From assembly GCA_949296455.1 (NCBI GenBank), contig CASFOZ010000005.1, positions 1-64,000 on the forward strand: a DNA stretch of 64,000 nt, written 5' to 3'. The DNA is from an uncultured Eubacteriales bacterium. Lineage in GTDB: Bacteria > Bacillota > Clostridia > Christensenellales > CALVMC01. Made by a program: the position numbers and the translations under genes. The notes beneath the pieces are model-generated. The model was given only the letters and a program-made list of their open reading frames with translations, made no database searches and had not been told where the DNA came from. Numbering within the stretch: the first letter of the stretch is position 1; each line of letters opens with the position of its first letter. Below are positions 19,275 through 45,689 of the stretch, one piece after another.

Positions 19275-22200
19275 ATGAAAGGAAATTATTTTGCACATAG
19301 AAAAATATTTAAATTATCAGTAATATTATTGGTGCTTTCAATTTTAATTGCACTTTTTACAGGTGTACTGTTTGCAAATAAAGATAATTATTTTATAACA
19401 AATAATTCTTATTCGGAAATAGATACAGAAAATACCGGAACGATTTACGGTGGAAGCATTACCGAGTATAACGGAACCGTAAGTTCTGCAATTTCCAATG
19501 CTTACACTGCAGCTAAAAATGCCGGTAATTGGCAGGGTTCAATAAATACATCATACAATCCTGCAAGCGAAAGCATAAACTCGGGAAGAGCAGGAACTTT
19601 TACTCAGCCTTACTATATCGATACGGCAGATCAGCTCGTAAAAGCCATTAACAACGCTTCTACAAAAAGCGGTTCCGATTATACTTACGCAAGTTATAAT
19701 AATGCAAATACATACTTTGTTATAAGAAAAGATATTGATCTTGCTTCAAAATTATATATTGTATCCAATCAGTCAAAAGTTAATTTCAATATATCAGGTT
19801 ATGACTATACTGCAATAAGCGGATATGCAAATTTTGCTACATCGACAGGTGTGCAAAGAGACGGAAAAACATATTCTAATACAACCGATCCGCTCAGAGC
19901 AGTTAACGAATACTTAAAAGATAATAATATATTTGATAATGTATCTTCGATAAATGCGACAGGTAATACATTTAAGACTATAAGTAATTTATATTTGGGG
20001 TTTGCTTCTAATAACGGTTTGTTCAACGAATTGGAAGGGAGCGTTTTAGCATTGAATTTTTATAATGTATATTATAATGGAACAGGAAGCAATCTCAACT
20101 TTTTAGGAGCGTTAGCAGCAAAGAAATACGGGTATTCGGTAGCAAGCGTTAATGTAAGGGGGCTTACTTTTAACATAAGCGGAGGTACTTCATCTGGAAA
20201 TAGCGGATATGGCGGAATTTTAGGGTTTGCAACAAATGGCGGACTTATAGATAATTCTGGTTTCGAAGGAGGATTAATTGCAACAAGTCTAAGAAATGTA
20301 GCAGGTATTGTAGGCTTAACAGATACTAATTTTGACGGTTCTTTTGTCGACAATACAGTTTATGGAAATATTTTATCCGGTAGAGGTAATACCGGAGGTT
20401 TAGTAGGATATCTACAAGGGAATTGCGAATTTAGCGGGACTAATATCAATAATGCAGATATCGAATCGAATTCGGGCTCTTTAGGCGGTATAATTGGAAT
20501 TTTTTCGGGAAGTTCTACAAGTTTACAAATAAGCGGAAACACTAAAAATTTAGGAAATATTCGAGGAACCAGTTCGGTAGGCGGAATAATAGGAACGGTA
20601 AGAGGATATGTAATTATGTCTGATGCCGTAAACGGTTATAACGGCGGTGCCTCAGACAATAATTCAGTAGGAAATTATTGCGATCCTAATGCAAGCATTC
20701 AAGCTTCCGGAAGCGGCGTTGGTGGACTTTTTGGATATGTGTATAGCCAAATTGAAATTAGTAATTGCCATAATTTTATGGAAATCATGTCAGGGCCCAA
20801 ATACGATGTAGGAGGATTAATGGGTATAATTCAAAGCGGTAGCGTTATAGATTCCTGTGTTAACCACGCAGATATATCAATGTTCGACATTTCAAATCTG
20901 GGCGGAATAGTAGGAGTACTCTACGGAGACTCTGAAATTAAAAATAGTGTAAATTACGGAAATATTTCAGCTAAATCAAACGCAGGCGGAATAGCCGGCA
21001 TATCTTATGCTACTATAGAAAATCAAGTATTTAGTGGGTGTAAAAACTATGGAACAATTGCATGTATATCAGGAAGAGCGGCAGGAATCTTTGCTGCGGT
21101 TCATTCTACTGTTAATAATTTAATTATAGAAAACTGTTCTAATTTCGGCTCGGTTTATAACGCTTCTACTATGAACAAGGTAGGAACTGCGAAACCGGGC
21201 GGCGGCACCTACTCTTACGAAGAGGCTTTTAAAGAAAGTTCTTACTCTGCAGCAGCTGCATATGTGGCAGGCATTTTAGGTTATTACGATAATTTTAATG
21301 TAACGGGAGGGGTTACTGTACAAAACTGTACTAACGGAACCTCAGGGACAAACAGTGTGATCAAATCGTCTTATCGCTATATAGGCGGTATTGTCGGAGG
21401 TAGCGGTCTTGCGGAGGACGGAACAGGTACTTTATACGATAATTTCTTTATAACCTTAAAAAATAACACAAATTATATGGATATCTCGGGTTGCGGGTAT
21501 GCAGGCGGACTCTACGGTCATATGAGAGGAAAAATTAAACTTACCATAGGGAACCCCGATATAGATACCAAAACTTACGGAAATTTCGGAACAATAACTT
21601 CTTTTCATTCAACAAGTGCCGATATAGGTTCTATTGCAGGTTGTATAAGGGGAACTCTCGACCTTGTAGGAGACAATGCTTATAAAAATGAAGAAACAAT
21701 CGAGACAAGCGAAGCGGCTACAACCGCAGGTGGTATAATAGGATTTATAGAAGGCACGGGCAGCAATACAATAGAGCTCAGCGCCAACTGGGCAAACGAA
21801 GCCGATATCGTAACCGGCAGAAGTTATGTCGGAGGAATAATCGGCGGAACCAGCAGAGCAAACTTTGTAATTTCCGGCGCAATGTACAATACAGGAGATA
21901 TCATTTGTAAAGCGGGAACAACTTATATAGGCGGTTTGTTTGGCAGCATGGCTTTGTCTCTTAGCATAAAAGCTTATATTTATAACGAAGGTAATGTTTA
22001 CAGTCAGCTCAAAACCACTGACAGTACGGTCAGCAGTGCTTCGGGAAGCATAGGCGGAATTGTCGGAAATGTAGGCGGTAAACTTGAATTTACACAAAGC
22101 GCCGCAGGCTCTTACAACAGCGGTATAGTTTACGCCAATTTCAGAAAGGTCGGCGGTATTGCAGGTAATGTGGGCGGTACGGTATCGATGACCGGAGTTA

Positions 22201-25200
22201 TCAGTGACGAAAATGAAAAAATAAAAGATAAACAATATCCCACAATAAACATTTACAAACCGGGAAGCGATGATGCAGAAGTAGTTACAGTTCTTTCAAC
22301 GGTTTTTGCAGAAGCCTATGCCGGAGGATTTATAGGATATATGACAGGGACGACCGCAAGCTTTACGAACTGTATCAATTACGCTTCCGTTTACTGTACG
22401 GCAAACGATGTCGCAGGCTTTATCGGACAGGGTAATTCTATTACAAGTTTAAGCATGGTTAACTGCAAAAATTACGGCGATATCGCAACCCAGGCTTCGT
22501 GGGCGGGCGGTTTTACCGGTGGCGCACCTCTTGGAGTATATGTAGAAAACTGTGCAAATTACGGTAATATTTCAACTCGTATGAGTCAAAGTGCGGCAGG
22601 TTTCTTCTCGGGAATAGGTTTTAACGATAAAACAGCTTATTCGGTAACTATTAAAAACTCCTTTAACGCAGGTAACATAGCGGGCGCTCTTACAACGGGC
22701 GGACTCATAGGTTATATAAGAAACGCTGAAACCGTCGAAATTACTGACTCATACAGTACGGGCAATGTTTCTGTTGAAAGTGTCGGGACGGGTATTCAGG
22801 CTAGATCGATGGGCGGACTTATTGGTCATGCCGAAAGATTCAATTCCTTAACGCTCAGCAATTGTTATGTGGATTGCGAGAAAGTAGGCGACATAAGCTC
22901 TTTACGAATCGGAGGATTAGTCGGGTATATTTATTACGCAAAGGCGGGTACTGTAAATATCAATAACTGTTATGTGGATATCGATACCATTGTTTCATCG
23001 AGAGATGTAAGCGGAAGTATCGGGGGTATTTCATCTAACGCAAATATTGACAGCAGATTTATTATGAAAGACTGTTATTTTGCGGGCGAATCAATTACCG
23101 GTCAGACCATTGCAGGCGGAATTTTAGGTTTTACCGATGGGCTGAGAGAGATAACCGTTCAAAGAGTTGCTTGTCTTTACTTTGGAATCGAAATTACGAC
23201 AGCAGGAAAGGCTGTTTCAGCTCTTGCTCAGAGTCTTTATGATGTTTCAGGCACCGTTCTTTTCGAAGATATTTATGTAACCAGCAAATTGATTGCGGCA
23301 AACGGGACAGGAGATGTTTCATTGTTTGTAGAATATTTAGAATTTGACAATGCTTACCGAGATTTAAGCGTAACAATTAAAAATTATTATTTCAGCGGAA
23401 ATCCCCAAGATTTCGACTATTTTCAAGGAAGTGAAGATTCAAGCGCAAAAAATAATTATTATAAAGGGAATGTATCGGCAAAACACGCAAATTATTTCGG
23501 CGCAATTGACAATAACAGTAACGGAACGAGTTACAAAAAAACACTCAGTATTCACGATACCTATATAACAAAACTTTCGCAGACCATATCTTTCGACGAA
23601 ATAGGCGGTTCTTCTAATTTTTCCTCAACTTCGGCAGCTGACTTCAACCCGTCTTCAACAAATAACTGCGATTATGAGTTCGGTACGGGAACCGATAATC
23701 TGTTTGTAAATTACAGCGATTTACAAAATATCGATAATTTTAACGGATGGGGAGTTACTCAAGATGTAAGAAGCGGCAGTGCAAACACTTCTTCCACGCC
23801 GTGGGGAATCGACGCTGCCGTAAACGACGGTAAGCCCTTCCTTATCGTTGCAACGATGAAAGAGATCAATATATACTACAATAACATCGGCGACGATCTC
23901 GATATATTCGATAACTCGATTATAAGAAATGTCGATGAAAGGAATAACGAGACCGTAGTTAGTATTATAAGTTATTTTTCCGATACTTTATCTTACAATG
24001 ATATTAAAAACGGCAAACAGGACGACAGCGGTTATAGTTATATCAATGAAATAAAAAGAGTCGGTTATAATGTCAGCGAATTATATAAAGCAAGACAAGA
24101 AAACGGTTCCTATTTAGCAAGCGATAAATATACGGAAATGCCCGTTTCATCGCCGGATAAAGTAATGACATTGAGAAACGGAGCCGATATATATATTTCA
24201 TATTCTGCGATAGAATATACTATAATTATTCCTAACGGCGGTGCGGTTAATGTTGCAGGCGCTGCAAATAATAAATTTACCATAGATAATTTAAGCGGAA
24301 TTAGTATAACGAATAATAATGAAGGACAGTCTTCCTCGTTTGTATATTTTGCGTTACAGAATATAGACGGCGAATACGATTCCGTTGGCGAGAGCAGTAT
24401 GGTTCTTATTGAGGGTTCTCAGGGGACGACAAGTGCGGTATATAAATTGAATTTCGAAGCTTTTATCAACCAACAGCTCATACACAACTATGCAAAATCT
24501 TCCGGTGGTAATATGTCTCTTACCTTTAAGGCTATGTTTATCGAAGTATACGAGGTAACTTTCAATTTATCGGCTGATACCTTCCCGTCCTATGTTACCG
24601 TAATTAATTCAAGCGGAGTATCGGTAGATTTCGGAAATACGATAAGTATCGAAGCGGGAAAACAGGAAACATACACTATTATATTAACAAAGCATTACGA
24701 GCTAGAAAAAGGACCCGTAGATGAATCAACCGGTTCTCCGATAGAAGGAAATACCGCAAATTATAATTACGATAAAACAAAAATGGTTCTTACTATAACC
24801 AATACCAATGCAAACGAAAAATATAATTTTACTATCTATGTTCAGGCAATAGAATATACGGTAGAATACAAATTATATAACACTTCGGGCGAGATATTAA
24901 TGCCGGAGCCGGGCGATATAACATTGGCGACGGAAAGTGCGGTTGTTACGGTAGGAAACGTAATCAGTGCGCAGAATATTTCCATAAATCCGGACAGCGT
25001 CTATAAGTTCGTTACATACAGATACCGTTATACCGAAAACGGCAATGTTAAAACCGAAGATATAGATACGCAGGGCTCGACTGTTTTAGGAACTATTGTT
25101 TGTACTGCCGATTATCTCGATAAATATGTAACCGACGGCAAAATTGTATTTGAGATAATATTCGAGTCAGACGCAACTTTAATTTTAACTATCGGCAATA

Positions 25201-26639
25201 TTGCAGATTGGGACAATGATTACGGTTCGGTAATAATAAATATTTATGATGAAAATTATGTAATGCAGTCAACCGAAACTGTATCAAGGCTTATCAGCGA
25301 GTTCGAACAATCCTTCGACGTCGGATTTATTATAGAGATAATTCCGTGGGTTAATAATCATTTCGAAATAACTGCCTTTACATTGAACGGCGAAAATACC
25401 GAGCTTATTAACGAGAAATTAACCTTGCAGTTAGACTCAAACAAAACCGTCAATATAGAAATGGATTATATCAAGTACGGTATAAGATATTCTATAGTCG
25501 ATGAAAATCATACCGAAATCGACGGCGTTATGGATAATGTTACAATAGAGCTTGAAACAGGACTCGATTATATCACGGCAAGAGGAGACAATGTCACGGG
25601 TCAGATTAGTGAGATTGCAGGTTACGGATTCAATTCTTGGGGAATTTACTATATGGGTGAATTTATCCCATTCAGCGCAAGCGACTATTCGACGGACGGT
25701 TCTCTTAACAGTGCCGAAATAACTCTTTATATATTAGATAATTATATCGACGACAACGGCGAACTGGTAATAGCTAGCAGATTATATACTTTGTTCGATA
25801 TCGATGTTGTGCTTGCCGATATCGGAGACGATTTAGGCGAATTCGAAATCAGAATTTATAACGATATTTTAGACGAATACGGCGACCCTGTGAATATCGA
25901 AGATATCGAAAGTATGCCTTATCTTACTTTGATTAAAGTTACTGCTCTTCCCGGAGAATATTACGATTTCAGACAGTTTATCGGAATATCCGAAGATGAA
26001 ATCAATCAGGAAGATTCTAATATCGCAGAATTCTATCTTACCGAATCGAGAACGGTTATGCTGTATTTCGAAGCAAGACCTATAGCAATTTCAGTTATTG
26101 AAGATTTAACCAGTGCTTCCGGTGAATTGGTTGTTTCAAATTCAAGCGGCAACACCGACAGCTGGAAAGCAGGTGACACTTTGTCATTTACTTTCAACGG
26201 CGCTTTCGGTCAGGAAATCAAAAGCTTCAGCTTCAACGGAATGGACGCAAAAGAATTGTCAACTACTTATGAAAATATAAACTATGCTAACGGAATCCTT
26301 ACGGTTACAATGACTGCCGAATTCCTTGAAACATTGGAAAATAATGATTTCAATATATCCGTTACTTCTCAAATCGGAACGATTTATCTTATAATGTTGT
26401 TAAGCATTATAATTATTCCGATAGTACTAACTATTTTGATTTTGATTTTCGTGATAATCAACATCAAGAGAAGAAAGAAAGCTATGGAAATTGTCGCTCA
26501 AAGAAAAGCTTCAAAATCAAGATTCGAAGCTTCCAATATGGTAAGCGAACTCAGACAAGGTACTTATAAACAGGCAGACAGAAGCGTTTCCAAAGAAGAA
26601 ATCGAGCGTCAGCTTAAAGCAAGAAAAGATAATAAGTAA
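19275..26639 (+). CDS. Giant surface protein B2 (2454 aa), a paralog of B1
   Basis: Starts 17 nt after A2 with RBS aggagg. Collinear with B1 (NWQGSINTSYNPASE, the Cys-ladder rungs, NFNGWGVTQDVRSGSANTSSTPWGIDAAVNDGKPFL). The C-terminal TM plus tail (IKRRKKAMEIVAQRKASKSRFEASNMVSELRQGTYKQADRSVSKEEIERQLKARKDNK) is nearly identical to that of B1. Confidence 0.9.
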   Translation: MKGNYFAHRKIFKLSVILLVLSILIALFTGVLFANKDNYFITNNSYSEIDTENTGTIYGGSITEYNGTVSSAISNAYTAAKNAGNWQGSINTSYNPASESINSGRAGTFTQPYYIDTADQLVKAINNASTKSGSDYTYASYNNANTYFVIRKDIDLASKLYIVSNQSKVNFNISGYDYTAISGYANFATSTGVQRDGKTYSNTTDPLRAVNEYLKDNNIFDNVSSINATGNTFKTISNLYLGFASNNGLFNELEGSVLALNFYNVYYNGTGSNLNFLGALAAKKYGYSVASVNVRGLTFNISGGTSSGNSGYGGILGFATNGGLIDNSGFEGGLIATSLRNVAGIVGLTDTNFDGSFVDNTVYGNILSGRGNTGGLVGYLQGNCEFSGTNINNADIESNSGSLGGIIGIFSGSSTSLQISGNTKNLGNIRGTSSVGGIIGTVRGYVIMSDAVNGYNGGASDNNSVGNYCDPNASIQASGSGVGGLFGYVYSQIEISNCHNFMEIMSGPKYDVGGLMGIIQSGSVIDSCVNHADISMFDISNLGGIVGVLYGDSEIKNSVNYGNISAKSNAGGIAGISYATIENQVFSGCKNYGTIACISGRAAGIFAAVHSTVNNLIIENCSNFGSVYNASTMNKVGTAKPGGGTYSYEEAFKESSYSAAAAYVAGILGYYDNFNVTGGVTVQNCTNGTSGTNSVIKSSYRYIGGIVGGSGLAEDGTGTLYDNFFITLKNNTNYMDISGCGYAGGLYGHMRGKIKLTIGNPDIDTKTYGNFGTITSFHSTSADIGSIAGCIRGTLDLVGDNAYKNEETIETSEAATTAGGIIGFIEGTGSNTIELSANWANEADIVTGRSYVGGIIGGTSRANFVISGAMYNTGDIICKAGTTYIGGLFGSMALSLSIKAYIYNEGNVYSQLKTTDSTVSSASGSIGGIVGNVGGKLEFTQSAAGSYNSGIVYANFRKVGGIAGNVGGTVSMTGVISDENEKIKDKQYPTINIYKPGSDDAEVVTVLSTVFAEAYAGGFIGYMTGTTASFTNCINYASVYCTANDVAGFIGQGNSITSLSMVNCKNYGDIATQASWAGGFTGGAPLGVYVENCANYGNISTRMSQSAAGFFSGIGFNDKTAYSVTIKNSFNAGNIAGALTTGGLIGYIRNAETVEITDSYSTGNVSVESVGTGIQARSMGGLIGHAERFNSLTLSNCYVDCEKVGDISSLRIGGLVGYIYYAKAGTVNINNCYVDIDTIVSSRDVSGSIGGISSNANIDSRFIMKDCYFAGESITGQTIAGGILGFTDGLREITVQRVACLYFGIEITTAGKAVSALAQSLYDVSGTVLFEDIYVTSKLIAANGTGDVSLFVEYLEFDNAYRDLSVTIKNYYFSGNPQDFDYFQGSEDSSAKNNYYKGNVSAKHANYFGAIDNNSNGTSYKKTLSIHDTYITKLSQTISFDEIGGSSNFSSTSAADFNPSSTNNCDYEFGTGTDNLFVNYSDLQNIDNFNGWGVTQDVRSGSANTSSTPWGIDAAVNDGKPFLIVATMKEINIYYNNIGDDLDIFDNSIIRNVDERNNETVVSIISYFSDTLSYNDIKNGKQDDSGYSYINEIKRVGYNVSELYKARQENGSYLASDKYTEMPVSSPDKVMTLRNGADIYISYSAIEYTIIIPNGGAVNVAGAANNKFTIDNLSGISITNNNEGQSSSFVYFALQNIDGEYDSVGESSMVLIEGSQGTTSAVYKLNFEAFINQQLIHNYAKSSGGNMSLTFKAMFIEVYEVTFNLSADTFPSYVTVINSSGVSVDFGNTISIEAGKQETYTIILTKHYELEKGPVDESTGSPIEGNTANYNYDKTKMVLTITNTNANEKYNFTIYVQAIEYTVEYKLYNTSGEILMPEPGDITLATESAVVTVGNVISAQNISINPDSVYKFVTYRYRYTENGNVKTEDIDTQGSTVLGTIVCTADYLDKYVTDGKIVFEIIFESDATLILTIGNIADWDNDYGSVIINIYDENYVMQSTETVSRLISEFEQSFDVGFIIEIIPWVNNHFEITAFTLNGENTELINEKLTLQLDSNKTVNIEMDYIKYGIRYSIVDENHTEIDGVMDNVTIELETGLDYITARGDNVTGQISEIAGYGFNSWGIYYMGEFIPFSASDYSTDGSLNSAEITLYILDNYIDDNGELVIASRLYTLFDIDVVLADIGDDLGEFEIRIYNDILDEYGDPVNIEDIESMPYLTLIKVTALPGEYYDFRQFIGISEDEINQEDSNIAEFYLTESRTVMLYFEARPIAISVIEDLTSASGELVVSNSSGNTDSWKAGDTLSFTFNGAFGQEIKSFSFNGMDAKELSTTYENINYANGILTVTMTAEFLETLENNDFNISVTSQIGTIYLIMLLSIIIIPIVLTILILIFVIINIKRRKKAMEIVAQRKASKSRFEASNMVSELRQGTYKQADRSVSKEEIERQLKARKDNK

Positions 26640-26660
26640 TTATAGCGATTCAATAGAAAA

Positions 26661-26687
26661 ACTCCGAAAAATTCGGAGTTTTTTTAT
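26661..26687 (+). terminator. Rho-independent terminator after B2
   Basis: actccgaa-aaa-ttcggagt perfect hairpin followed by ttttttt. Confidence 0.85.
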
Positions 26688-26737
26688 TGCAAATTTTTAT
26701 TAATATAATTAAATTAATAATTTTTTTGCTTATATCT

Positions 26738-26766
26738 ATTGAAAAGATATATATTTTGTGCTAAAA
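26738..26766 (+). promoter_or_regulatory. Putative promoter (TTGAAA-17-TGcTAAAAT, extended -10) for the SPFH/zinc-ribbon gene
   Basis: ttgaaa at 26738-43, a 17-nt spacer ending in tgc, taaaat at 26761-66. RBS aaggag precedes the ATG at 26834. Confidence 0.5.
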
Positions 26767-26833
26767 TAATATCATTAATATTAGGAATTTTATTTTTATT
26801 CCTGTTTTATTAAGTTAGTTTAAGGAGCACGCT

Positions 26834-29287
26834 ATGGGGTTTTCGAAAAACCAGTTTTGTAAACATGTTGAATGGGAAGACAAGTCGTCAGACAGTATCG
26901 GTTTAAGATTTATCTCTAACGGCGATAAGGAAATCTCTAAAAATTCAAAAGTTATCGTTGAGGACAATCAACTCGCTTTATTTTATTTGGAAGGTCAAAT
27001 CACCGATGTTTTTTGGCCGGGTACTTATAAACTTTCCGATTCCGATAAGGTCGCTGTGACTTCGGAAATGTTAGGGTGGAGGCATCCTTTCGATACCCCC
27101 TATGAAGGCGATGTGTATTTTTTCAATACCGATAGTTTTTCAAAACAAAAATGGGTAACTCATTCTGCCGTAACCGTAAACGATAATGAAAGCGGTGGAG
27201 TTAAAATAAAATGTTTCGGAACTTTTTCTTATAATGTTATAAACCCCGGCAATCTTATTGCCAAAGCTTTCGGAGCAAAACCTCTTCTTAAAACCTCCGA
27301 TTTGGAAGCTTCTTTAAACGATATAATTACCAAAAATATTCCCGCTATTTTTTCGGAAAGTAAAATTTCCGTAAAAGCGGCAATTTCCGATTCAAGCGCT
27401 CTTTCCGAGACTGCTCTAAATGTCTTACAGAACGATTTTTCGGAATTAGGTTTAGAAGTAAGAGCTTTTGCTTTTGATAATATTACAAACGAGGATGAAA
27501 AGCCTACTTTAGCGGCTTACGAGGAAACGCCCGTCGAAATCAAAACCACAAAAACGGAAAATTTCCAAAATACTAACCAGCAGATACAATACCCGAATCA
27601 ACAAATGCCGCAATCAAATCAGCAGATACATTATCCGAATCAGCAGCCGCATTCTAACCAACAAATACAATATCCTAACCAACAGGCTCAGGCTTCAAGA
27701 TCGGAATCGGTTCAGTCACAACAGCAAAGACCGTCTAATCCGTCATCTTACAATAATTATCAAAATTCTTATCTTACACGCTCCCCGATGGGCGGAGCCA
27801 GCGGTGGCGGACTTGCTATAAACGACGCTTTTCTTAGAGCTAAAGGTGTTCAGCAGACAAATAAATTAGAAGAAAGAAAGGAATGTCCGAAGTGTCATAC
27901 TATGGTAAAAATTTCTTCAAGGTTTTGTCCTAACTGCGGCAGCGAAGTTAATGCGAAAAAAACTTGCAGTAATTGCGGAGCAGAAATAAACAGCAATGCC
28001 AAGTTTTGTCCTGAATGCGGAAAAACCGTTACCGATATTTTAGAATCAAAGAAAAATTGTCCCAACTGCGGTGCGGAACTCAAACCGGGAGCAAAATTCT
28101 GTCCTGAGTGCGGTACTTCTGTTTTGAATAATACTGTTTCTGCAAATATGCCTGCAAATCAGAATTCTGCCATAAACCAGAATGATTCCTTTGACGCAAA
28201 TCAGAGTGTACATGAAATTAGAGAGACGGTTGAAAATCCAAACGCTTCACAATTACGGAAAGATGAAAGCGAGGTTAATAATACTGTTTCAAGTGAAAGA
28301 CCTTTCGAAAACAATAATATTACTTCTTCCATGGACTCTTCTTCCGAAGAAAAAAAATCCGATATCTTAGAAAGCGAAAATGTTCAAGGTCAAAGTATCA
28401 AGAATTTGGAAAGCGAAAATGAAAACGATTTATCCGCAAACAGTGCTTCCGAAGAGTCGTTACAGACTGAAAGCAATAGTTTGAATGACGGTGAAAATCA
28501 CGCTCAATTCGTTGAGAACGGTTCTGTTTCGGAAGTTTTAAGTTCCGATAATAAAAAAGAAACGGCAGATTTAATCGACGAAACGAATAATGAAAATAGT
28601 GAAAATTTTAATCAGCAAAATATAGATAAGGAAGATAATAATGTTGTCGCCGAATCCGATTCGGAAGAAAAGGTAAATATAAATTTGTCTTCCGAAAATG
28701 AAGAAGTATCGCAAAACCCTATAAATAATGTTTCGGAAAATACTTCTGAATCTTCCGATTCCGATTTAAAAAATGCGGACACAAACGAAATTGAAGAAAA
28801 AAGTTCAGACAATTCTTTAAATCAAGACAGTATTAATGAAAGTAACGAAGAACGGTTTTTAAATCAGAACGAACAGATTGCTGAAAATCAAGATATTGAA
28901 GATAACTCTATTTCGGACAGCAGATACGAAAATCAATCCGTTGACGAGACTAATAATTTAAATGCTAACCTTGAAAACTTATCTCAGCAAAAAAACAGTT
29001 TTCAGAACGATATCGAAATGATGAAAAAAATAATCGTGGAAAGTGATAATGTTTCAAGAGAAAACACGGTTAAAAGTTCGGCTTTTGAAAACGATATCAA
29101 AAATATTTATCAAGGCGAGCAACCTAAAATGCCGTCGTCCGAAAATTCCGTTCCGTTTACAAACGGCGGTATGAATCAAAATCCGAATAACGATATCCAG
29201 TCAAGATTACAGCAGAATATCAATTCTTCGCAAAATAATTTCGCAGGTCAAAATGCGGAAAATTCCGAAGATGATAAAAAAAAATGA
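26834..29287 (+). CDS. SPFH-type (Band_7_1 / YdjI-like) domain protein (817 aa). It is fused to a Gln-rich tandem repeat, three double-zinc-ribbon motifs and a long acidic Ser/Asn/Glu-rich disordered tail.
   Basis: The N-terminus MGFSKNQFCKHVEWEDKSSDSIGLRFISNGDKEI...VEDNQLALFYLEGQITDVFWPGTYKLS follows the characteristic opening of Band_7_1 family proteins (MG..F....IEW.D.S.D.L.WRFP....I..G..L.V.E.Q.A.F...GQ..DVF.PG.Y.L). Three repeats of NQQIQYPNQQ. follow, then CPKCHTMVKISSRFCPNCGSEV, CSNCGAEINSNAKFCPECGKTV and CPNCGAELKPGAKFCPECGTSV. The remaining ~380 aa are low-complexity and acidic. Confidence 0.8.
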   Translation: MGFSKNQFCKHVEWEDKSSDSIGLRFISNGDKEISKNSKVIVEDNQLALFYLEGQITDVFWPGTYKLSDSDKVAVTSEMLGWRHPFDTPYEGDVYFFNTDSFSKQKWVTHSAVTVNDNESGGVKIKCFGTFSYNVINPGNLIAKAFGAKPLLKTSDLEASLNDIITKNIPAIFSESKISVKAAISDSSALSETALNVLQNDFSELGLEVRAFAFDNITNEDEKPTLAAYEETPVEIKTTKTENFQNTNQQIQYPNQQMPQSNQQIHYPNQQPHSNQQIQYPNQQAQASRSESVQSQQQRPSNPSSYNNYQNSYLTRSPMGGASGGGLAINDAFLRAKGVQQTNKLEERKECPKCHTMVKISSRFCPNCGSEVNAKKTCSNCGAEINSNAKFCPECGKTVTDILESKKNCPNCGAELKPGAKFCPECGTSVLNNTVSANMPANQNSAINQNDSFDANQSVHEIRETVENPNASQLRKDESEVNNTVSSERPFENNNITSSMDSSSEEKKSDILESENVQGQSIKNLESENENDLSANSASEESLQTESNSLNDGENHAQFVENGSVSEVLSSDNKKETADLIDETNNENSENFNQQNIDKEDNNVVAESDSEEKVNINLSSENEEVSQNPINNVSENTSESSDSDLKNADTNEIEEKSSDNSLNQDSINESNEERFLNQNEQIAENQDIEDNSISDSRYENQSVDETNNLNANLENLSQQKNSFQNDIEMMKKIIVESDNVSRENTVKSSAFENDIKNIYQGEQPKMPSSENSVPFTNGGMNQNPNNDIQSRLQQNINSSQNNFAGQNAENSEDDKKK
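27581..27712 (+). repeat. Three tandem ~40-nt repeats encoding (S/T)NQQI(Q/H)YPNQQ.. inside the SPFH/zinc-ribbon gene
   Basis: TNQQIQYPNQQMPQ / SNQQIHYPNQQPH / SNQQIQYPNQQAQAS read directly from the translation. Confidence 0.7.
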
Positions 29288-32200
29288 TTGAAGACGGAGA
29301 TGCCGTTGATTCTGATGAGTTTTTAAAAGTAAATAAAGACGATAACTATTATAATGACTCCTTTTCCGATAACGGTTCGGATAGGGAGTCTTTTTATGCA
29401 AATCAGCAAAGTACAAGTAATTTTGAAGATGAAAGTTTTTTGGGGCAATCCGATTTAGGAAATCGGCAATTTTCCGATAACGAATTCAATTCTCATTTTG
29501 AAAATCAAGCGGATAATTCAAACGGTAATGTTGATTTACATAATAATTTTAACGGTAAAGATGATTTAAATAATAATTTATATGATAACGATGTTTTAAA
29601 CACTTATAACGATAATGATTTATACGATAAAAATTTAAATTCTTATAACGATAACGATTCAATAAAAAACGATGTAAATTTATATAACCAAAATGATTTA
29701 TTCGACGATTCTGAAAATAGCGTAGATACTTTGCCGAATAATACAAACGAACAATACTATTTTGAGAATGATTTGAACGATAACGAAATCGTTGGGGAAT
29801 CGGAAAACCCGTTAAATCTTCATAACGGAAATTTTCAAAATTCTGAAAGCGACTTCGAAAATCCCGTAAAAGAATTGAAAAATTCTGAAAACGATGTTTA
29901 TAATTTCAAAAATCCAACAGAAAATCAATACGATTTTAAAAATGCCAACGGAAACGAAATGGCTGTTGATAACAAAATCGACAACGGTGAGAATATTGCA
30001 GATACAAACCCACTCTTTGGAAAAAGAGCCGAAAATTCACAAAACAACAGTGAAGAAGGAAATTTCAATTCGGATGTAGAAAGCCGATTTGTCCAAAATA
30101 CTGCAAATACAATGGACGAAAATACAACGGCTGAGAATTTTCTGAACGATACACGGACTGCTTTTCAAAACAAATTAGATAATGCCCTTTTTAAGGATTT
30201 CGATGATTTTGAGAAAAGTCAAAATACCGATGATTTTGGCGACGATAATTTCAGCGGTGCAGAGATTGCTTTGAAAAATCGAAAAGAAACAGAAGAAGAA
30301 TTTTCGAATGACACGGTAATAGAAAGGGAAACAACCGAAAAAGAATTTGAATCGAACAAAACCGTTTTCAATCCATATTTTAATGATGAAGATATAGAAG
30401 AAAAAGAAAATATCGAAAAAGCTTCTTTATCGGAAAATCATTTAAAAGAAGAAAATGAAAAAGAAATAGATTCAGAAATTAGTGAGTCGGAAAAGAAAGC
30501 TAAAGTAGAGATAGGCGAGTCGGAAAAGAAAATAAGAGTAGGAAATGATGAGTCGCAAGCAGATACAGAAGAAGAAAGCGATGAATCGATAGATGATAGG
30601 TCGTCTGATAAAGAAACAAACGACATAAAACCGACAGACGAGAAAAATCAAAATTCAGAAAACACCGAAGATTTTAACGACGGCAAAGAGGAAATAAAAA
30701 ACCGTTCTATAAATATAAATTTAACCAATCAATTTTTAAATAATTTAAGCATGGCTCAATCAAATGAGAAAATCAAACAAGAGCAGCCTATGCCGGTAGA
30801 TACCGATATAGAAAAGAAAGGGAATAAGAATATTTTAGGGAAGTATTCGGATTTTTTAGACAGCTTAAAAACTCAGGCGGGAGTAAATGATAAGAAAGAA
30901 GATAACTTAGATATTGAATCCGACGATAGCGAAAATGACGCAGATAATACGGAAAATATACAGGCTGAAAAAGAAGACCTTTCAGAAAGCGATGAATTGA
31001 ATTTTCCCGAGTCAAAAGTTTACGATAATTCAAATGCCGAAAACGAAAATATATTCAAAAATTCCGTTGACGAAAAAGAAGAGTCTGAACCTAAACAGGA
31101 GCAGCAGACTTTCGACCCCGGCGCATACCTTAAAAATGTAATAAATCAAAATCAAAATTCCGAAAATGACGCACCTAAAGAAAAAGTTAAAAGAACGATA
31201 TTTGACGAAGAAGATGATGAAGATATAAAGTCGTATAATAAAGAAGATATCAGAAAGTTATTGTTCGACGACGAAGAAGAGGACGAACAAGAAGAGATAC
31301 AAAAAGAAAATTATGTTCAAGCTAGCGAGCAAGACAAAAAGGAAGGGCAAGATAAAAGGGAAGAGCAGGTCAAACAGGAAAGTCAGCCTTTCGACGCAAG
31401 TTCTTATATTAAGAATTTAATATCTTCAAACCAAAAAGAAGTCAAGGAAGAAGAGTCGGAAAAGCAGTCGCCGAAAGCATTTGGAGAAGCTGCCGAAAAC
31501 GAAAACATATTCAAAAATTCCGTTGACGAAAAAGAAGAGTCTGAGCCTAAACAGGAGCAGCAGACTTTCGACCCCGGCGCATACCTTAAAAACATAATAA
31601 ACCAAAATCAGAATAAAGAAAATAAAGATTTAAACAATGAAATAAAAAAAGATAATTTGTTTGCCGATTTATCGAAAAACAATATTTCCGATAATTCAGA
31701 GTCCGATGCCGAAGACGCAAGTGATGGCGAAATGATTTCGAAAATAATGTTCCGAAAAATGGGTATAGAAGATATCGAAGACGATGAAGAGGATGAGAGC
31801 GAAAATGTTTCGGATAGAAAAATCGATTCTTCGGTTGCAGAAAGTCAGAAATTTTTATCGGATAACGAAGCCGTCAAAGATTCAGACAGAGAAACAAGGC
31901 CTAAGGTAAAAACAATTTTCGACGACGATGATGAAGAAGAGCCCGATAAAACTCCCCGTGGGGATTCTTTTGCCGAACAGTTGCTGCGAAAAATGCAGGC
32001 TATGAAAGAGGAAAGGGAGAAAGGCAAAAGAAATTTCGATACAAACGAAGCAAGATATAATCCTTTGTCCGAATACGGAAGCGGACGCAATTATTCAAGC
32101 AGGACGAACGAAAAAGCAAATAACGACGACAGAACTAATTTTGAAAGCAAACAGGAAATAAAAGAAACCGTTCAAGAAGAGCCGGTAAAGCAAAGTATTT

Positions 32201-32553
32201 CTCAAGAGATAAAATCGGATTCGTTTAAAGAAAGCGAAACACGCAAAGACGACATTTCTCTAAATACCGATATTTCAAGCAAAACCGGTGCGGATAATTT
32301 AAATACAAAATCCGAAAACAATAACGGATATGCAAAAGCTCAGCCGACCGGATATTCCCATTCTTTTGTCGATAATATTCTTACATACGGATACGGATGG
32401 GACGATGTGTATTCGTTCAATCAGGAAATTTCGGACGAAGAAGGACTTCTCAACGCATTCGGAGTGTCGAACAAAAGTTATGAAAATGCAGGTTTAAATC
32501 AGCCGTTGAGTTACGATAACGACGACCCGTTAAAAAACATAAAAAAGCCTTAA
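29284..32553 (+). CDS. Hyper-acidic low-complexity protein (1089 aa; Asp/Glu/Asn/Ser/Lys-rich, predicted disordered), with no TM segment or signal peptide
   Basis: A 3.3-kb ORF whose ATG overlaps the stop of the upstream gene (aaaaaaaaATGA). The composition is dominated by D/E/N/S/K and contains an internal duplicated block ENENIFKNSVDEKEESEPKQEQQTFDPGAYLKN(V/I)INQNQN. The coding potential is supported only by ORF length and codon continuity, and low-complexity ORFs can be overcalled. Confidence 0.65.
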   Translation: MIEDGDAVDSDEFLKVNKDDNYYNDSFSDNGSDRESFYANQQSTSNFEDESFLGQSDLGNRQFSDNEFNSHFENQADNSNGNVDLHNNFNGKDDLNNNLYDNDVLNTYNDNDLYDKNLNSYNDNDSIKNDVNLYNQNDLFDDSENSVDTLPNNTNEQYYFENDLNDNEIVGESENPLNLHNGNFQNSESDFENPVKELKNSENDVYNFKNPTENQYDFKNANGNEMAVDNKIDNGENIADTNPLFGKRAENSQNNSEEGNFNSDVESRFVQNTANTMDENTTAENFLNDTRTAFQNKLDNALFKDFDDFEKSQNTDDFGDDNFSGAEIALKNRKETEEEFSNDTVIERETTEKEFESNKTVFNPYFNDEDIEEKENIEKASLSENHLKEENEKEIDSEISESEKKAKVEIGESEKKIRVGNDESQADTEEESDESIDDRSSDKETNDIKPTDEKNQNSENTEDFNDGKEEIKNRSININLTNQFLNNLSMAQSNEKIKQEQPMPVDTDIEKKGNKNILGKYSDFLDSLKTQAGVNDKKEDNLDIESDDSENDADNTENIQAEKEDLSESDELNFPESKVYDNSNAENENIFKNSVDEKEESEPKQEQQTFDPGAYLKNVINQNQNSENDAPKEKVKRTIFDEEDDEDIKSYNKEDIRKLLFDDEEEDEQEEIQKENYVQASEQDKKEGQDKREEQVKQESQPFDASSYIKNLISSNQKEVKEEESEKQSPKAFGEAAENENIFKNSVDEKEESEPKQEQQTFDPGAYLKNIINQNQNKENKDLNNEIKKDNLFADLSKNNISDNSESDAEDASDGEMISKIMFRKMGIEDIEDDEEDESENVSDRKIDSSVAESQKFLSDNEAVKDSDRETRPKVKTIFDDDDEEEPDKTPRGDSFAEQLLRKMQAMKEEREKGKRNFDTNEARYNPLSEYGSGRNYSSRTNEKANNDDRTNFESKQEIKETVQEEPVKQSISQEIKSDSFKESETRKDDISLNTDISSKTGADNLNTKSENNNGYAKAQPTGYSHSFVDNILTYGYGWDDVYSFNQEISDEEGLLNAFGVSNKSYENAGLNQPLSYDNDDPLKNIKKP
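31035..31165 (+). repeat. Intragenic direct repeat, copy 1 (~130 bp)
   Basis: gccgaaaacgaaaatatattcaaaaattccgttgacgaaaaagaagagtctgaacctaaacaggagcagcagactttcgaccccggcgcataccttaaaaatgtaataaatcaaaatc... Confidence 0.8.
31492..31622 (+). repeat. Intragenic direct repeat, copy 2 (~130 bp, near-identical to copy 1)
   Basis: gccgaaaacgaaaacatattcaaaaattccgttgacgaaaaagaagagtctgagcctaaacaggagcagcagactttcgaccccggcgcataccttaaaaacataataaaccaaaatc... Only a handful of substitutions relative to copy 1. Confidence 0.8.
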
Positions 32554-32635
32554 AATTAATTTTAAGATAAAATTTTCAGGTCAATAAAACCCAAAAAACA
32601 GTAAAAAATTTTTAAAAAATTTCTTTGTAAAATGT

Positions 32636-32664
32636 TTGACAAGGAAATTTTTTTATTATAGAAT
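32636..32664 (+). promoter_or_regulatory. Sigma-A promoter (TTGACA-17-TAGAAT) of the S10 ribosomal protein operon
   Basis: ttgaca at 32636-41, a 17-nt spacer, tagaat at 32659-64, about 215 nt upstream of rpsJ. Confidence 0.7.
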
Positions 32665-32878
32665 ATAAAAGCTGCACAAAAAAGGATGATGCGGAAGGTT
32701 ACCTACGGGATAGTTTTCGCGGACTAGTTTAAATAATTAAACGACCGGAAAGGGGAAACCCTTTTTTAAAAAGCGGGCAGCGACACACACGAACGAGTGA
32801 ACGGCAAGTCCTTTATATATAAGACAAGCTCTCACAAGTCAACCGCTATCCGGGTATAAACAGGAGGATTGAACACCT
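32665..32878 (+). promoter_or_regulatory. S10 operon leader with an attenuator-like hairpin plus T-run (candidate L4 autoregulatory leader)
   Basis: The ~215-nt untranslated leader contains GGGG-AAA-CCC followed by tttttt at 32752-32767, and further GC-rich stems (gcgggcagcgac, cgaccggaaagg). The long structured leader position is analogous to the E. coli/Bacillus S10 leader. Confidence 0.45.
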
Positions 32879-43949: not shown

Positions 43950-44331
43950 AAAGTAAATTGAATACAAGTTACTTGAAATAAAGTTAAGTTTTATTAAATA
44001 ATCGATGGAAATAAGACTGAATAAATTGCCGACCAAGGTAATTCGGATGAATTAATATCTGTCGTAAAAAATTAATAAAATCAAAAAAACGAAAGTCTGA
44101 AAAAATAATTATTTCTTAAATATCGGTAACTGCAATTGCCTATTAAATCGAGAGATAAAAGGACAGGCTGCCGATTTAAAAGAAAAACCGAATTATAACA
44201 ATACGGTAAAGGGCAGGCAGCTTTTAAAAGCAAGTATGTTCATTAATAATCTTAATAGAACATAGACATAAAAATTTCCGTAAATGCGGAAACAGGGCAA
44301 CCCAAAAGAGATTTATAAAAAGGAGATAAAA

Positions 44332-44949
44332 ATGAAAGTTATATTTTTAGGCGCACCCGGCGCAGGTAAGGGTACTCAGGCTGAGATAATTTGCGATAAA
44401 CTTTCAATACCCCATATCTCGACAGGGGATATATTAAGAAAAAATATCAAGGAAGAAACCGAACTCGGTAAACTTGCCAAAAGTTATATCGACAGCGGAA
44501 AGCTCGTTCCCGACGAAGTGGTTATAGGTCTTATGAAAAACAGACTTCAAGAGAGCGATTGCAAAAAAGGTTATCTTCTCGACGGCTTCCCGAGAACGGT
44601 AGTACAGGCTCAGGAACTCGATAAATTCGCCTCAATAGATAAAGTCGTAAATATCGATATCGATACCGCTCTTTTAACAGCCCGTATAACAGGCAGAAGA
44701 ATGTGTCAGTGCGGAGCAAGCTATCATATTTCAACGCACAGTTCCGATATATGCGACAAGTGCGGTGCAAAACTTTATCAGAGAGACGACGATAAGGAAG
44801 AAACTGTTAAAAACAGAATTTCCGTTTATAATCAGCAGACAAAACCTTTAATCGACTACTATGATAAACAAGGTAAACTTGTCACCGTAGACGGGAGCGC
44901 CGAAATTAACAAACTTTCCGAAATTATCTTAAAAGAGCTTAGTAAATGA
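44332..44949 (+). CDS. adk: Adenylate kinase (zinc-binding lid variant)
   Basis: MKVIFLGAPGAGKGTQA... is a P-loop, and the lid carries CQCG...CDKCG. The start at 44332 follows the aaaaggag RBS. The longer ORF in the track from 44284 was rejected. Confidence 0.95.
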   Translation: MKVIFLGAPGAGKGTQAEIICDKLSIPHISTGDILRKNIKEETELGKLAKSYIDSGKLVPDEVVIGLMKNRLQESDCKKGYLLDGFPRTVVQAQELDKFASIDKVVNIDIDTALLTARITGRRMCQCGASYHISTHSSDICDKCGAKLYQRDDDKEETVKNRISVYNQQTKPLIDYYDKQGKLVTVDGSAEINKLSEIILKELSK

Positions 44950-45689
44950 TGATTGTTAAAACGGCAGAGCAAATCGAAAGAATGCGTGAGCCTTGCCTTA
45001 TTGTCAGAGATTTACTGAAAATGATAGAAAGCGAAATCAGACCGGGCATAACTACCAAAAAACTCGATTTACTGATTTTCGATTTTATAAAAAAACACGG
45101 AGCCGTACCTTCCTTTCTCGGCTATAACGGTTATCCCGCTTCGGCTTGTATATCCGTTGAAGACGAGGTTGTGCACGGAATTCCTTCGGACAGAATTTTG
45201 CACGAAGGCGAAATAGTCAGTATAGATGTAGGAGCCTATAAAAACTCTTTCCATTCAGACGCAGCAAGAACCTTCCCGGTAGGAAGAATAAGCCCTTTGA
45301 AAGAAAAACTTATCAAGGTTACCGAAGAATGTTTCTTTAAAGGTTTTGATATTTTGAAAGACGGAGTAAGACTCGGCGATTTAGGTTATGCTATTCAAAG
45401 CCATGCGGAAAATAACGGCTTCTCCGTCGTAAGGTCTCTTGTAGGACACGGTGTGGGACTCAATCTTCACGAAGACCCTAATATCCCAAACTACGGTAAG
45501 CCGGGAAGAGGACTCAGACTCAGAGCCGGTATGACCGTCGCTATCGAACCTATGATTAATGCGGGCGTTTACGAAGTCAATGTTTTAGACGACGGCTGGA
45601 CGATAGTTACGGCAGATTCGAAACCTTCCGCCCATTACGAAAATACCGTTCTTATTACGGAAGACGGTGCGGAAATTCTGACACTGTGA
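44946..45689 (+). CDS. map: Methionine aminopeptidase type I
   Basis: ...HGIPSDRILHEGEIVSIDVGAYKNSFHSDAARTF...GHGVG..LHEDP... ATGA overlap with adk. Confidence 0.95.
   Translation: MMIVKTAEQIERMREPCLIVRDLLKMIESEIRPGITTKKLDLLIFDFIKKHGAVPSFLGYNGYPASACISVEDEVVHGIPSDRILHEGEIVSIDVGAYKNSFHSDAARTFPVGRISPLKEKLIKVTEECFFKGFDILKDGVRLGDLGYAIQSHAENNGFSVVRSLVGHGVGLNLHEDPNIPNYGKPGRGLRLRAGMTVAIEPMINAGVYEVNVLDDGWTIVTADSKPSAHYENTVLITEDGAEILTL

What the first reader, a model, noticed from the sequence alone, without database searches (positions are those of the whole stretch)
29271..29290. A9 homopolymer at the stop/start overlap of the SPFH and acidic genes: possible -1 slippage or phase-variable fusion
The SPFH-ZnR gene ends ...GAT GAT AAA AAA AAA TGA and the acidic-protein gene starts at the ATG inside aaaaaaaaATGA. 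A -1 ribosomal slip on the A-run, or loss of a single A from the 9-A tract (29276-29284), puts the upstream frame directly into the downstream ORF. The result would be one ~1900-aa protein, namely the SPFH/zinc ribbons followed by an extremely long acidic tail. Homopolymeric A tracts of this length are classic sites for slipped-strand phase variation, for sequencing error, and for programmed -1 frameshifting (A AAA AAN heptamers). The ATGA overlap could alternatively indicate simple translational coupling.
Basis: seen in the sequence. Interest (0 to 1): 0.5.

Follow-up and report, generated by a model that had tools for sequence, protein, structure and literature searches.

The report
Conserved A9 run at gene overlap
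Two neighbouring genes of an uncultured gut Clostridia bacterium overlap by four bases (ATGA) at the end of a nine-A run that is identical in every related strain found, so it is neither a sequencing error nor an on/off switch; it is most likely an ordinary coupled gene junction that may also leak, or deliberately make, a minority of a 1,906-residue fused protein.

Summary
A9 lies at 29276-29284. ORF1 (SPFH domain, three zinc ribbons, acidic tail; 817 aa) ends AAA AAA AAA TGA. ORF2 (acidic orphan; 1089 aa) starts at the ATG of ATGA. One frame claim is wrong: losing one A gives ...KKND*, not a fusion. Fusion needs a -1 ribosomal slip, one extra A (A10) or loss of two (A7).

All 16 related loci (15 contigs, 11 local haplotypes, 80-98% nucleotide identity) carry exactly A9 inside a 47-nt invariant block. 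No fused protein exists in the databases. This argues against phase variation and against assembly error.

ORF2's ATG has no Shine-Dalgarno in an SD-rich genome. The adk/map pair in the same window uses an equally SD-poor ATGA overlap, so termination-reinitiation coupling is enough to explain ORF2 expression.

This genome purges A runs of 8 or more from coding sequence (2 seen, 13.8 expected), and this is its only A9. In Clostridium thermocellum an A9 run gave about 15% A10 transcripts. Some fused product is therefore likely, but whether it is selected for is untested. No stimulatory RNA structure was found.

Verdict: an ordinary coupled junction and a credible but unproven candidate for transcriptional-slippage recoding.

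The parts
26739..26767 (+). Promoter-like site (TTGAAA-17-TAAAAT with upstream TG) ahead of ORF1. It follows a terminator-like hairpin at 26651-26689 that closes the preceding giant gene.
   Evidence: This is a consensus match only. No terminator-like site and no better-than-chance promoter match lies between ORF1 and ORF2, so the two are read as one transcription unit (inferred).
26834..29287 (+). ORF1, 817 aa. It comprises an SPFH/Band_7_1 domain (residues 31-221, nt 26924-27496), a Q-rich linker, three zinc ribbons (about residues 349-429, nt 27878-28120) and an N/S/E-rich acidic tail (residues 441-817, nt 28154-29284, net charge -55) ending ...SEDDKKK.
   Evidence: It has a strong SD (aaggag, -7.4 kcal/mol) before its ATG. 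Relatives at 83-87% identity all end ...SEDDKKK.
29254..29300 (+). 47-nt block that is invariant in all haplotypes. It spans the last 10 codons of ORF1, the A9 run, the ATGA overlap and the first 5 codons of ORF2.
   Evidence: it is the second longest invariant run in 3 kb; under codon-column shuffling a pre-specified site falls in such a run with P of about 0.0008, and a run of 47 or more occurs anywhere with P = 0.026.
29272..29277 (+). TGA (29272-29274) and TAA (29275-29277) in ORF2's frame, immediately before the A run. They limit any ORF1-to-ORF2 frame change to the run itself.
29276..29284 (+). A9 run, which forms the three AAA codons (KKK) that end ORF1. Its last A is the A of ORF2's ATG. 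A AAA AAA (29278-29284) is a formal -1 slippery heptamer, and nine A is the length at which RNA-polymerase slippage becomes appreciable.
   Evidence: It is identical in 16 of 16 related loci. It is the only A run of 9 or more in the window and one of only two runs of 8 or more in its coding sequence. The four other KKK triplets in the window are all interrupted by AAG.
29284..29287 (+). ATGA stop/start overlap: ORF2 ATG at 29284-29286 and ORF1 TGA at 29285-29287.
   Evidence: Gene callers placed the same 4-nt overlap in every related contig.
29289..29291 (+). TGA in the third frame. It is the stop met by ORF1 on an A8 template or transcript, giving ...KKND*.
29293..29307 (+). Small hairpin (GACGG-loop-CCGTT; -4.8 kcal/mol here and -5.7 in other strains) that starts 8 nt after the run. 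It is too weak to count as a frameshift stimulator.
   Evidence: The 100 nt downstream of the run fold no better than shuffled sequence (z = 0.00). There is no Rfam match.
29284..32553 (+). ORF2, 1089 aa, strongly acidic (net charge about -155), N/D/E-rich and lineage-specific. No SD precedes its ATG, and no alternative start with an SD occurs in the first 350 codons. It contains a 133-nt direct repeat (31035-31167 and 31491-31623).
   Evidence: Only 9 homologues were found, all in the same clade, 634-1220 aa long and all starting MIEDG. Its C-terminal 240 aa have no relative outside its own cluster among 1.84 billion representatives.

Best explanation
This is a conserved two-gene junction in one transcription unit. 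In standard decoding the ribosome reads KKK on the A9 run and stops at UGA, releasing the 817-aa SPFH/zinc-ribbon protein. The 1089-aa acidic protein is then started at the AUG that overlaps this stop (AUGA), by termination-reinitiation coupling and without help from a Shine-Dalgarno sequence. The two proteins are therefore made separately and in a linked ratio.

The start and stop sit at the end of an A9 run. A minority of decoding events, from transcripts carrying a tenth A or from a -1 slip of tRNA-Lys, should therefore read straight through and give a 1906-aa fusion. That fusion is at least tolerated.

Shown here: the anatomy, the frame arithmetic, the invariance of the run, the lack of an SD, the lack of a stimulatory structure, and the genome-wide avoidance of long A runs. 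Inferred: coupling as the main route, and the existence and size of the fused fraction.
For: The ATGA overlap is present and is called identically in every related contig. No terminator-like site or above-chance promoter match lies between the ORFs.

Internal control: adenylate kinase and methionine aminopeptidase, which are unquestionably separate proteins, overlap by ATGA at 44946-44949 with an equally poor SD (-2.1 against -3.2 kcal/mol). SD-poor ATGA coupling therefore operates in this genome.

No fused ORF of about 1900 aa appears among hits to either ORF in 5.8 billion proteins. No homologue outside the clade joins the two parts. No significant RNA structure flanks the run.

A run at the last three codons of a gene is where slippage costs least: A8 only changes KKK to KKND. 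This explains why this run can survive in a genome that otherwise purges A runs of 8 or more.

Literature: ATGA overlaps mediate tight coupling by termination-reinitiation, and the SD is often important but not always essential (PMC6728339).
Against: Firmicutes normally use strong SDs for reinitiation at overlaps as well. Removing the SD cut reinitiation by 60-90% in three of five E. coli pairs and abolished it in a fourth (PMC6728339). Nearly every other gene in the window has a GGAGG-type SD of -7 to -13 kcal/mol, so coupling here may be inefficient.

A single synonymous AAA-to-AAG change would remove the slippery run while keeping KKK and ATGA. None of 11 haplotypes has made that change, whereas the other A6-A8 runs in the same genes vary between strains and the four other KKK triplets in the window are all broken by AAG.

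The junction block is more conserved than its surroundings. The composition of ORF1's tail continues smoothly into ORF2.
Confidence: 0.55

Rival explanations
1. Programmed recoding. The conserved A9 is kept because it sets a fixed ratio of two useful products: the 817-aa SPFH/zinc-ribbon protein and a 1906-aa version carrying the whole acidic ORF2 as its tail. The most likely route is RNA-polymerase slippage that adds one A, as in mxiE, tssM1 and IS1447. A -1 slip of tRNA-Lys on A AAA AAA next to the UGA is less likely.
For: Adding one A, or a -1 shift, joins two long ORFs exactly. The run and the ORF arrangement are conserved in 11 non-identical haplotypes at 80-98% nucleotide identity, which meets the comparative criterion of Baranov et al. 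(PMC1088944). The genome selects against A runs of 8 or more in coding sequence (2 observed against 13.8 expected; 9 or more: 1 against 5.4, P = 0.002), yet keeps this one invariant while other A6-A8 runs drift. ORF2 has no SD and no alternative start. The 47-nt block is invariant. The acidic N-rich composition is continuous across the junction. In Clostridium thermocellum an A9 run gave 8 of 52 cDNA clones with A10 and 9 of 52 with A8 (PMC6211511). An A11 run just before a stop gives 20-25% full-length TssM1 (PMC4256274).
Against: All comparative support comes from one species-level clade, so conservation may simply reflect shallow divergence or recombination tracts. No relative encodes the fusion as one ORF. 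An AUG sits exactly at the junction, and the adk/map control shows that SD-poor ATGA coupling works here. No hairpin abuts the run, and neither flank folds significantly better than shuffled sequence. A_AAA_AAA is a comparatively poor ribosomal shift site in E. coli (PMC5009743). A run in the last three codons of a gene is also where neutral tolerance is expected.
Confidence: 0.3
2. Phase variation. Slipped-strand mispairing during replication changes the tract length and switches the locus between separate and fused states in subpopulations.
For: A9 is within the length range of known contingency tracts (general knowledge). Consensus assemblies cannot exclude low-frequency variants within a sample.
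Against: The tract is A9 in 16 of 16 loci from many samples and 11 haplotypes. No fused or A8-type gene product was found in the databases. A change of +/-1 would not switch either gene off. A pattern scan allowing A6-A12 found nothing further in JGI metagenomes, but the organism appears to be absent from that collection.
Confidence: 0.05
3. Artefact. The two ORFs are really one gene, and A9 is a homopolymer miscall of A10.
For: Homopolymers are error-prone on some sequencing platforms (general knowledge).
Against: Independent assemblies made by different pipelines (ENA metagenome assemblies, Logan, an NCBI MAG) from many samples all give A9.
Confidence: 0.02

Closest known systems
ATGA stop/start overlaps with translational coupling by termination-reinitiation (Huber et al. 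2019, PMC6728339)
   Same: Two co-directional genes with a 4-nt ATGA overlap in one transcription unit. The downstream start has no independent strong ribosome-binding site, so its translation would depend on ribosomes finishing the upstream gene.
   Different: In Firmicutes such overlaps usually carry a strong SD inside the upstream gene, and this one does not. The overlap is also embedded in a slippage-prone A9 run, so the two frames can be joined.
Citrobacter rodentium tssM1 and Yersinia tssM3 poly-A transcriptional frameshifting (PMC4256274)
   Same: A poly-A run made of AAA lysine codons lies close to a premature stop in a non-mobile chromosomal gene. Extra A residues in the mRNA give a long form alongside the short form, with 20-25% long form in tssM1.
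   Different: tssM1 has A11 lying 28 nt before the stop, and its long form is the canonical protein known from other species. Here the run is A9 and abuts the stop, the downstream ORF has its own AUG, and no single-ORF homologue exists.
IS1447 of Clostridium thermocellum (IS3 family) A9 slippage (PMC6211511), and the 9A sites of IS elements and S. aureus mapW in Baranov et al. 2005 (PMC1088944)
   Same: An A9 run at the 3' end of the first ORF in a member of the Clostridia. Transcripts with A10 and A8 each made up about 16%. One of the two indel classes fuses OrfA and OrfB. The run and the ORF arrangement are conserved among homologues.
   Different: In IS1447 the fusion needs the opposite frame change, a stem-loop precedes the run, and the element is mobile. 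Here the genes are chromosomal and not mobile, and no adjoining stem-loop is evident.
dnaX: Thermus thermophilus A9 transcriptional slippage and E. coli A_AAA_AAG -1 ribosomal frameshift (PMC1088944, PMC5009743)
   Same: A lysine-codon A run is used to make two products in a set ratio, and the heptamer geometry (A AAA AAN) is the same.
   Different: In dnaX the recoded product is the shorter one. The E. coli site has an upstream SD-like stimulator and a strong downstream hairpin, and neither is present here.
Shigella flexneri mxiE (as cited in PMC1088944)
   Same: Two overlapping ORFs are joined by transcriptional insertion of one non-templated nucleotide in a run of nine, producing the longer protein.
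   Different: mxiE uses a T/U run and its first ORF is very short. Here both ORFs are long, and the second can in principle start on its own.

Membership tests
ATGA-overlap translational coupling (termination-reinitiation) | Co-directional genes whose stop and start codons overlap (ATGA) | tested here: met
   The overlap is the same in all related contigs.
ATGA-overlap translational coupling (termination-reinitiation) | Both genes lie on one transcript, with no terminator or promoter between them | tested here: inconclusive
   The consensus scan found no terminator-like site and only chance-level promoter matches near the junction. No transcript data are available.
ATGA-overlap translational coupling (termination-reinitiation) | SD motif for the downstream gene inside the upstream gene (typical of Firmicutes, not strictly required) | tested here: not met
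   The best duplex with the anti-SD is -3.2 kcal/mol, against -7 to -13 for most genes in the window. The adk/map overlap is similarly poor at -2.1.
ATGA-overlap translational coupling (termination-reinitiation) | Translation of the downstream gene depends on translation of the upstream gene | not testable with these tools
   This needs a reporter construct with a premature stop in ORF1.
Programmed transcriptional slippage (dnaX of Thermus, mxiE, tssM1, IS1447) | Homopolymeric A or T run of about 9 or more in the coding strand | tested here: met
   A9 at 29276-29284.
Programmed transcriptional slippage (dnaX of Thermus, mxiE, tssM1, IS1447) | A one-nucleotide indel in the run joins two long ORFs | tested here: met
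   A10 gives a 1906-aa product and A8 does not.
Programmed transcriptional slippage (dnaX of Thermus, mxiE, tssM1, IS1447) | Run and ORF organisation conserved in non-identical homologues (criterion of PMC1088944) | tested here: met
   16 loci and 11 haplotypes at 80-98% nucleotide identity. All belong to one clade, so the depth of comparison is shallow.
Programmed transcriptional slippage (dnaX of Thermus, mxiE, tssM1, IS1447) | The host genome otherwise avoids such runs in coding sequence, implying that its polymerase slips on them | tested here: met
   A runs of 8 or more: 2 observed against 13.8 expected. Runs of 9 or more: 1 against 5.4, P = 0.002, from 500 codon shuffles of 29 genes. Only 64 kb was sampled.
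Programmed transcriptional slippage (dnaX of Thermus, mxiE, tssM1, IS1447) | A homologue elsewhere encodes the fused product as a single ORF | tested here: not met
   No such protein was found.
Programmed transcriptional slippage (dnaX of Thermus, mxiE, tssM1, IS1447) | The mRNA population is heterogeneous in run length, and the fused protein is detectable and needed | not testable with these tools
   This needs cDNA sequencing, proteomics and an AAG mutant.
-1 programmed ribosomal frameshifting (E. coli dnaX / IS3 type) | X XXY YYZ heptamer in the zero frame | tested here: met
   A AAA AAA at 29278-29284. It was reported to be less shift-prone than A_AAA_AAG in E. coli (PMC5009743).
-1 programmed ribosomal frameshifting (E. 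coli dnaX / IS3 type) | Stable hairpin or pseudoknot 5-9 nt downstream of the heptamer | tested here: not met
   Only a 5-6 bp hairpin of -4.8 to -5.7 kcal/mol is present at the right spacing. The downstream 100 nt give z = 0.00. The flanking 101 nt give z = -1.88, with 11 of 200 shuffles folding as well.
-1 programmed ribosomal frameshifting (E. coli dnaX / IS3 type) | SD-like stimulator about 10-14 nt upstream of the shift site | tested here: not met
   No SD-like pairing better than -3.2 kcal/mol occurs in the 25 nt upstream.
Phase-variable contingency locus (slipped-strand mispairing) | Tract length differs between strains or samples | tested here: not met
   A9 in 16 of 16 loci. Heterogeneity within a sample cannot be tested.
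Phase-variable contingency locus (slipped-strand mispairing) | A length change of +/-1 switches a gene on or off | tested here: not met
   A8 leaves both ORFs intact (ORF1 ends KKND*), and A10 fuses them.

The most novel reading that the evidence does not exclude
The A9 run is a selected recoding site in a non-mobile chromosomal operon of an uncultured gut Clostridia lineage. RNA-polymerase slippage (+1 A), possibly aided by a -1 tRNA-Lys slip next to the UGA, makes a fixed fraction of a 1906-aa SPFH/zinc-ribbon protein carrying an acidic tail of about 1,470 residues, alongside the 817-aa form. If SD-less reinitiation is inefficient, this fusion could even be the main source of ORF2-encoded polypeptide.
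Probability: 0.3. Interest if true: 0.55.

Novelty: new member of a known kind. Interest (0 to 1): 0.3.

Why it matters
If the junction is only a coupled overlap, it is routine. Its practical value is then for annotation. The two ORFs should stay separate and should not be 'corrected' into one gene or flagged as a frameshifted pseudogene.

If the fusion is a selected product, it would add a rare non-mobile, non-viral example of poly-A recoding in Firmicutes. It would also show an SPFH scaffold protein made in two forms, one with and one without a very large acidic disordered tail.

The case also illustrates a general point. In a genome that visibly purges A runs of 8 or more from genes, the few survivors are good places to look for recoding.

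Tried and rejected
1. I looked for a Rosetta-stone fused homologue. ORF1 and ORF2 were each searched against 5.8 billion proteins, and ORF2's C-terminal 240 aa against 1.84 billion representatives. No fused form was found and ORF2 has no relative outside the clade.

2. I looked for orthologues at intermediate distance to see whether the junction varies. ORF1 hits fall from 83% straight to 25% identity. The GTDB genome scan found one species representative, an uncultured Clostridia MAG.

3. I scanned JGI metagenomes for tract-length variants (A6-A12). There were no matches at all, so the organism seems absent from that collection.

4. I looked for a frameshift-stimulating RNA structure or a known RNA family. 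Downstream z = 0.00, flanking z = -1.88, only weak hairpins, and no credible Rfam match (the one hit lies elsewhere, far below its gathering score). Covariation analysis was not attempted because the block is invariant.

5. I looked for an alternative SD-led start for ORF2. None occurs in the first 350 codons.

6. I tested for homology between ORF1's tail and ORF2, which might indicate one gene split in two. They share composition only; the best BLASTP E-value was 6.3.

7. I checked whether the split ORF2 in L011 was a homopolymer error. It is not: it is a 17-nt deletion in the repeat zone.

8. NCBIfam and PDB sequence searches added nothing beyond the zinc ribbons. No tRNA genes lie in the window, so the number of tRNA-Lys species could not be judged.
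Full report
**1. What is in the sequence**

Direct reading shows ...gaa gat gat AAA AAA AAA TGA ttgaagac... The nine A's lie at 29276-29284, the TGA at 29285-29287 and an ATG at 29284-29286.

The ORF list gives ORF1 at 26834-29287 (817 aa) and ORF2 at 29284-32553 (1089 aa), overlapping by ATGA.
- ORF1 has an SPFH/Band_7_1 domain (E = 4e-41) and three zinc ribbons. A Q-rich linker lies between them, and an N/S/E-rich tail with net charge -55 follows.
- ORF2 matches no Pfam or NCBIfam family. It is strongly acidic throughout, with net charge about -155.
- The S10 ribosomal-protein operon lies downstream. Upstream lie two tandem pairs of giant genes.
- The nearest named genome is an uncultured Clostridia MAG from a metagenome.

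**2. Frame arithmetic**

ORF2 is in the -1 frame of ORF1. I edited the run in silico:

| Run length | Result |
|---|---|
| A9 | ...SEDDKKK* (817 aa) |
| A10 | 1906-aa fusion, ...SEDDKKKMIEDG... |
| A7 | 1905-aa fusion |
| A8 | ...SEDDKKND* (818 aa), no fusion |

ORF2's frame is closed by TGA and TAA at 29272-29277, immediately before the run, so the run is the only place where the frames can be joined. The ATG is an automatic consequence of an A run followed by TGA and is not independent evidence.

**3. Is the run more than chance?**

From composition alone an A9 is not surprising. A first-order Markov model expects about 9 in the window.

The more relevant test keeps the 29 proteins of the window and redraws synonymous codons according to usage. 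Runs of 8 or more: 2 observed against 13.8 expected. Runs of 9 or more: 1 observed against 5.4 expected (P = 0.002).

This genome therefore removes long A runs from genes. Baranov et al. interpret that pattern as selection against polymerase slippage, with the threshold often at nine (PMC1088944). The junction run is the only A9 in the window. The four other KKK triplets are each broken by AAG.

**4. Related strains**

ORF1 has close relatives at 83-87% protein identity, and all end ...SEDDKKK.

I retrieved 16 related loci (15 distinct contigs) from ENA assemblies, Logan assemblies and an NCBI MAG. Every one reads GAAGATGAT-A9-TGAT. They represent 11 local haplotypes, and the 3-kb region around the junction is 80-98% identical between them.

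- The junction sits in a 47-nt invariant block (29254-29300), the second longest in 3 kb. Under codon-column shuffling a pre-chosen site falls in such a run with P of about 0.0008.
- Other A6-A8 runs in the same genes vary between strains. The A8 at 28350, for example, is present in only 2 of 8.
- No hit to either ORF is a fused protein of about 1900 aa.

These results exclude an assembly or sequencing artefact. They also argue strongly against phase variation at the level of strain consensus. In any case a +/-1 change would not switch either gene off.

**5. How is ORF2 expressed?**

Nearly all genes in the window have a GGAGG-type SD, with duplex energies of -7 to -13 kcal/mol. ORF2's ATG has -3.2, and no alternative start with an SD exists in its first 350 codons.

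No terminator-like site or convincing promoter lies between the ORFs. ORF2 polypeptide must therefore come from reinitiation at the AUGA overlap, from read-through by frame change, or from both.

Huber et al. report that Firmicutes normally use strong SDs at overlaps. They also report that deleting the SD cuts reinitiation by 60-90% in three of five E. coli pairs and abolishes it in a fourth, although the SD is not always essential (PMC6728339).

The window contains an internal control. Adenylate kinase (44284-44949) and methionine aminopeptidase (44946-45689) overlap by ATGA with an equally poor SD of -2.1 kcal/mol. SD-poor ATGA coupling is therefore used here for ordinary, separate proteins.

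**6. Evidence bearing on recoding**

*Ribosomal -1 shift.* A AAA AAA is a formal heptamer. It was reported to be much less shift-prone than A_AAA_AAG in E. coli (PMC5009743). The sequence downstream folds no better than shuffled sequence (z = 0.00). Only a hairpin of -4.8 to -5.7 kcal/mol sits at the right spacing. No SD-like stimulator lies upstream and there is no credible Rfam match.

*Transcriptional slippage.* A9 is the classic length (PMC1088944). In Clostridium thermocellum, IS1447 cDNA from an A9 run gave 8 of 52 clones with A10 and 9 of 52 with A8, against 0 of 30 from genomic DNA (PMC6211511). In Citrobacter rodentium tssM1, an A11 run just before a stop gives 20-25% of a long form (PMC4256274).

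If this organism's polymerase behaves similarly, roughly one transcript in seven would encode the 1906-aa fusion. A8 transcripts would still give both separate proteins. This is an inference by analogy, not a result.

The comparative criterion of Baranov et al. (conserved run plus conserved ORF arrangement in non-identical homologues) is formally met, but only within one shallow clade. No single-ORF homologue exists.

ORF1's tail and ORF2 share composition but no detectable homology.

**7. Verdict**

The most economical reading (confidence about 0.55) is an ordinary coupled bicistronic junction. Its position at the last three codons of ORF1 makes an otherwise disfavoured A9 tolerable. A minority fused product is a likely by-product.

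The main rival (about 0.3) is that the run is kept because the fusion is useful. Supporting this are the invariance of the run while other A runs drift, the genome-wide avoidance of A runs of 8 or more, the missing SD and the unusually conserved junction block.

Phase variation (about 0.05) and artefact (about 0.02) are effectively set aside.

Whichever reading is right, the mechanism belongs to known kinds. The case is a new instance in an uncultured lineage, involving an orphan acidic protein. It is moderately interesting as a candidate for experimental test and is not a new principle.

**8. Limits**

- No read-level, transcript or protein data could be examined.
- Only 64 kb of the genome was available for the run-depletion statistics.
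- All comparative data come from one clade.
- The 16S 3' tail of this organism was assumed to be canonical for the SD calculations.

Noticed in passing
window 851-6157, 6173-13594, 13945-19257, 19275-26639: Two tandem pairs of giant genes (1768 + 2473 aa and 1770 + 2454 aa). The pairs are paralogous (A1/A2 53% identical, B1/B2 46%). Each protein has an N-terminal hydrophobic anchor and a lysine-rich C-terminus. There is no Pfam or NCBIfam family apart from a weak Flg_new_2 match.
   Followed up: partly
window 31035-31167 and 31491-31623; L011 7897 and 8265: ORF2 carries a 133-nt direct repeat spaced 456 nt apart. Its length varies from 908 to 1220 aa between strains through in-frame repeat gain and loss. 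In L011 a 17-nt deletion in this zone splits ORF2 into 634 + 597 aa; this may be a real lesion or a repeat mis-assembly.
   Followed up: partly
window 44946-44949: Adenylate kinase and methionine aminopeptidase overlap by ATGA (followed by a second ATG) with a very weak SD. This is a second SD-poor coupled junction in an otherwise SD-rich genome.
   Followed up: partly
window, all coding sequences; 28350-28357: A runs drop sharply from length 7 (21 runs of 7 or more) to length 8 (2 runs of 8 or more) in coding sequence, against 39 and 14 expected from codon shuffling. Both survivors lie in ORF1. The A8 at 28350 is present in only 2 of 8 strain haplotypes.
   Followed up: yes
window 27776-30780 (ORF1 tail and ORF2): Between strains the three codon positions vary almost equally (for example 0.22, 0.24 and 0.25 in ORF2 30380-30780). 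Residue identity is therefore barely constrained, yet the reading frame is always kept. This is typical of a disordered, composition-selected protein.
   Followed up: partly
window 27524-27700 (ORF1 residues about 231-290): A Q-rich 'NQQIQYPNQQ' repeat region lies between the SPFH domain and the zinc ribbons. Its copy number and sequence vary between strains (ORF1 is 810-832 aa).
   Followed up: no
window 32554-32878: A 325-nt gap separates ORF2 from rpsJ (S10). It contains a near-consensus promoter-like site (TTGACA-17-TAGAAT at 32636-32664). No terminator-like site was found after ORF2.
   Followed up: no
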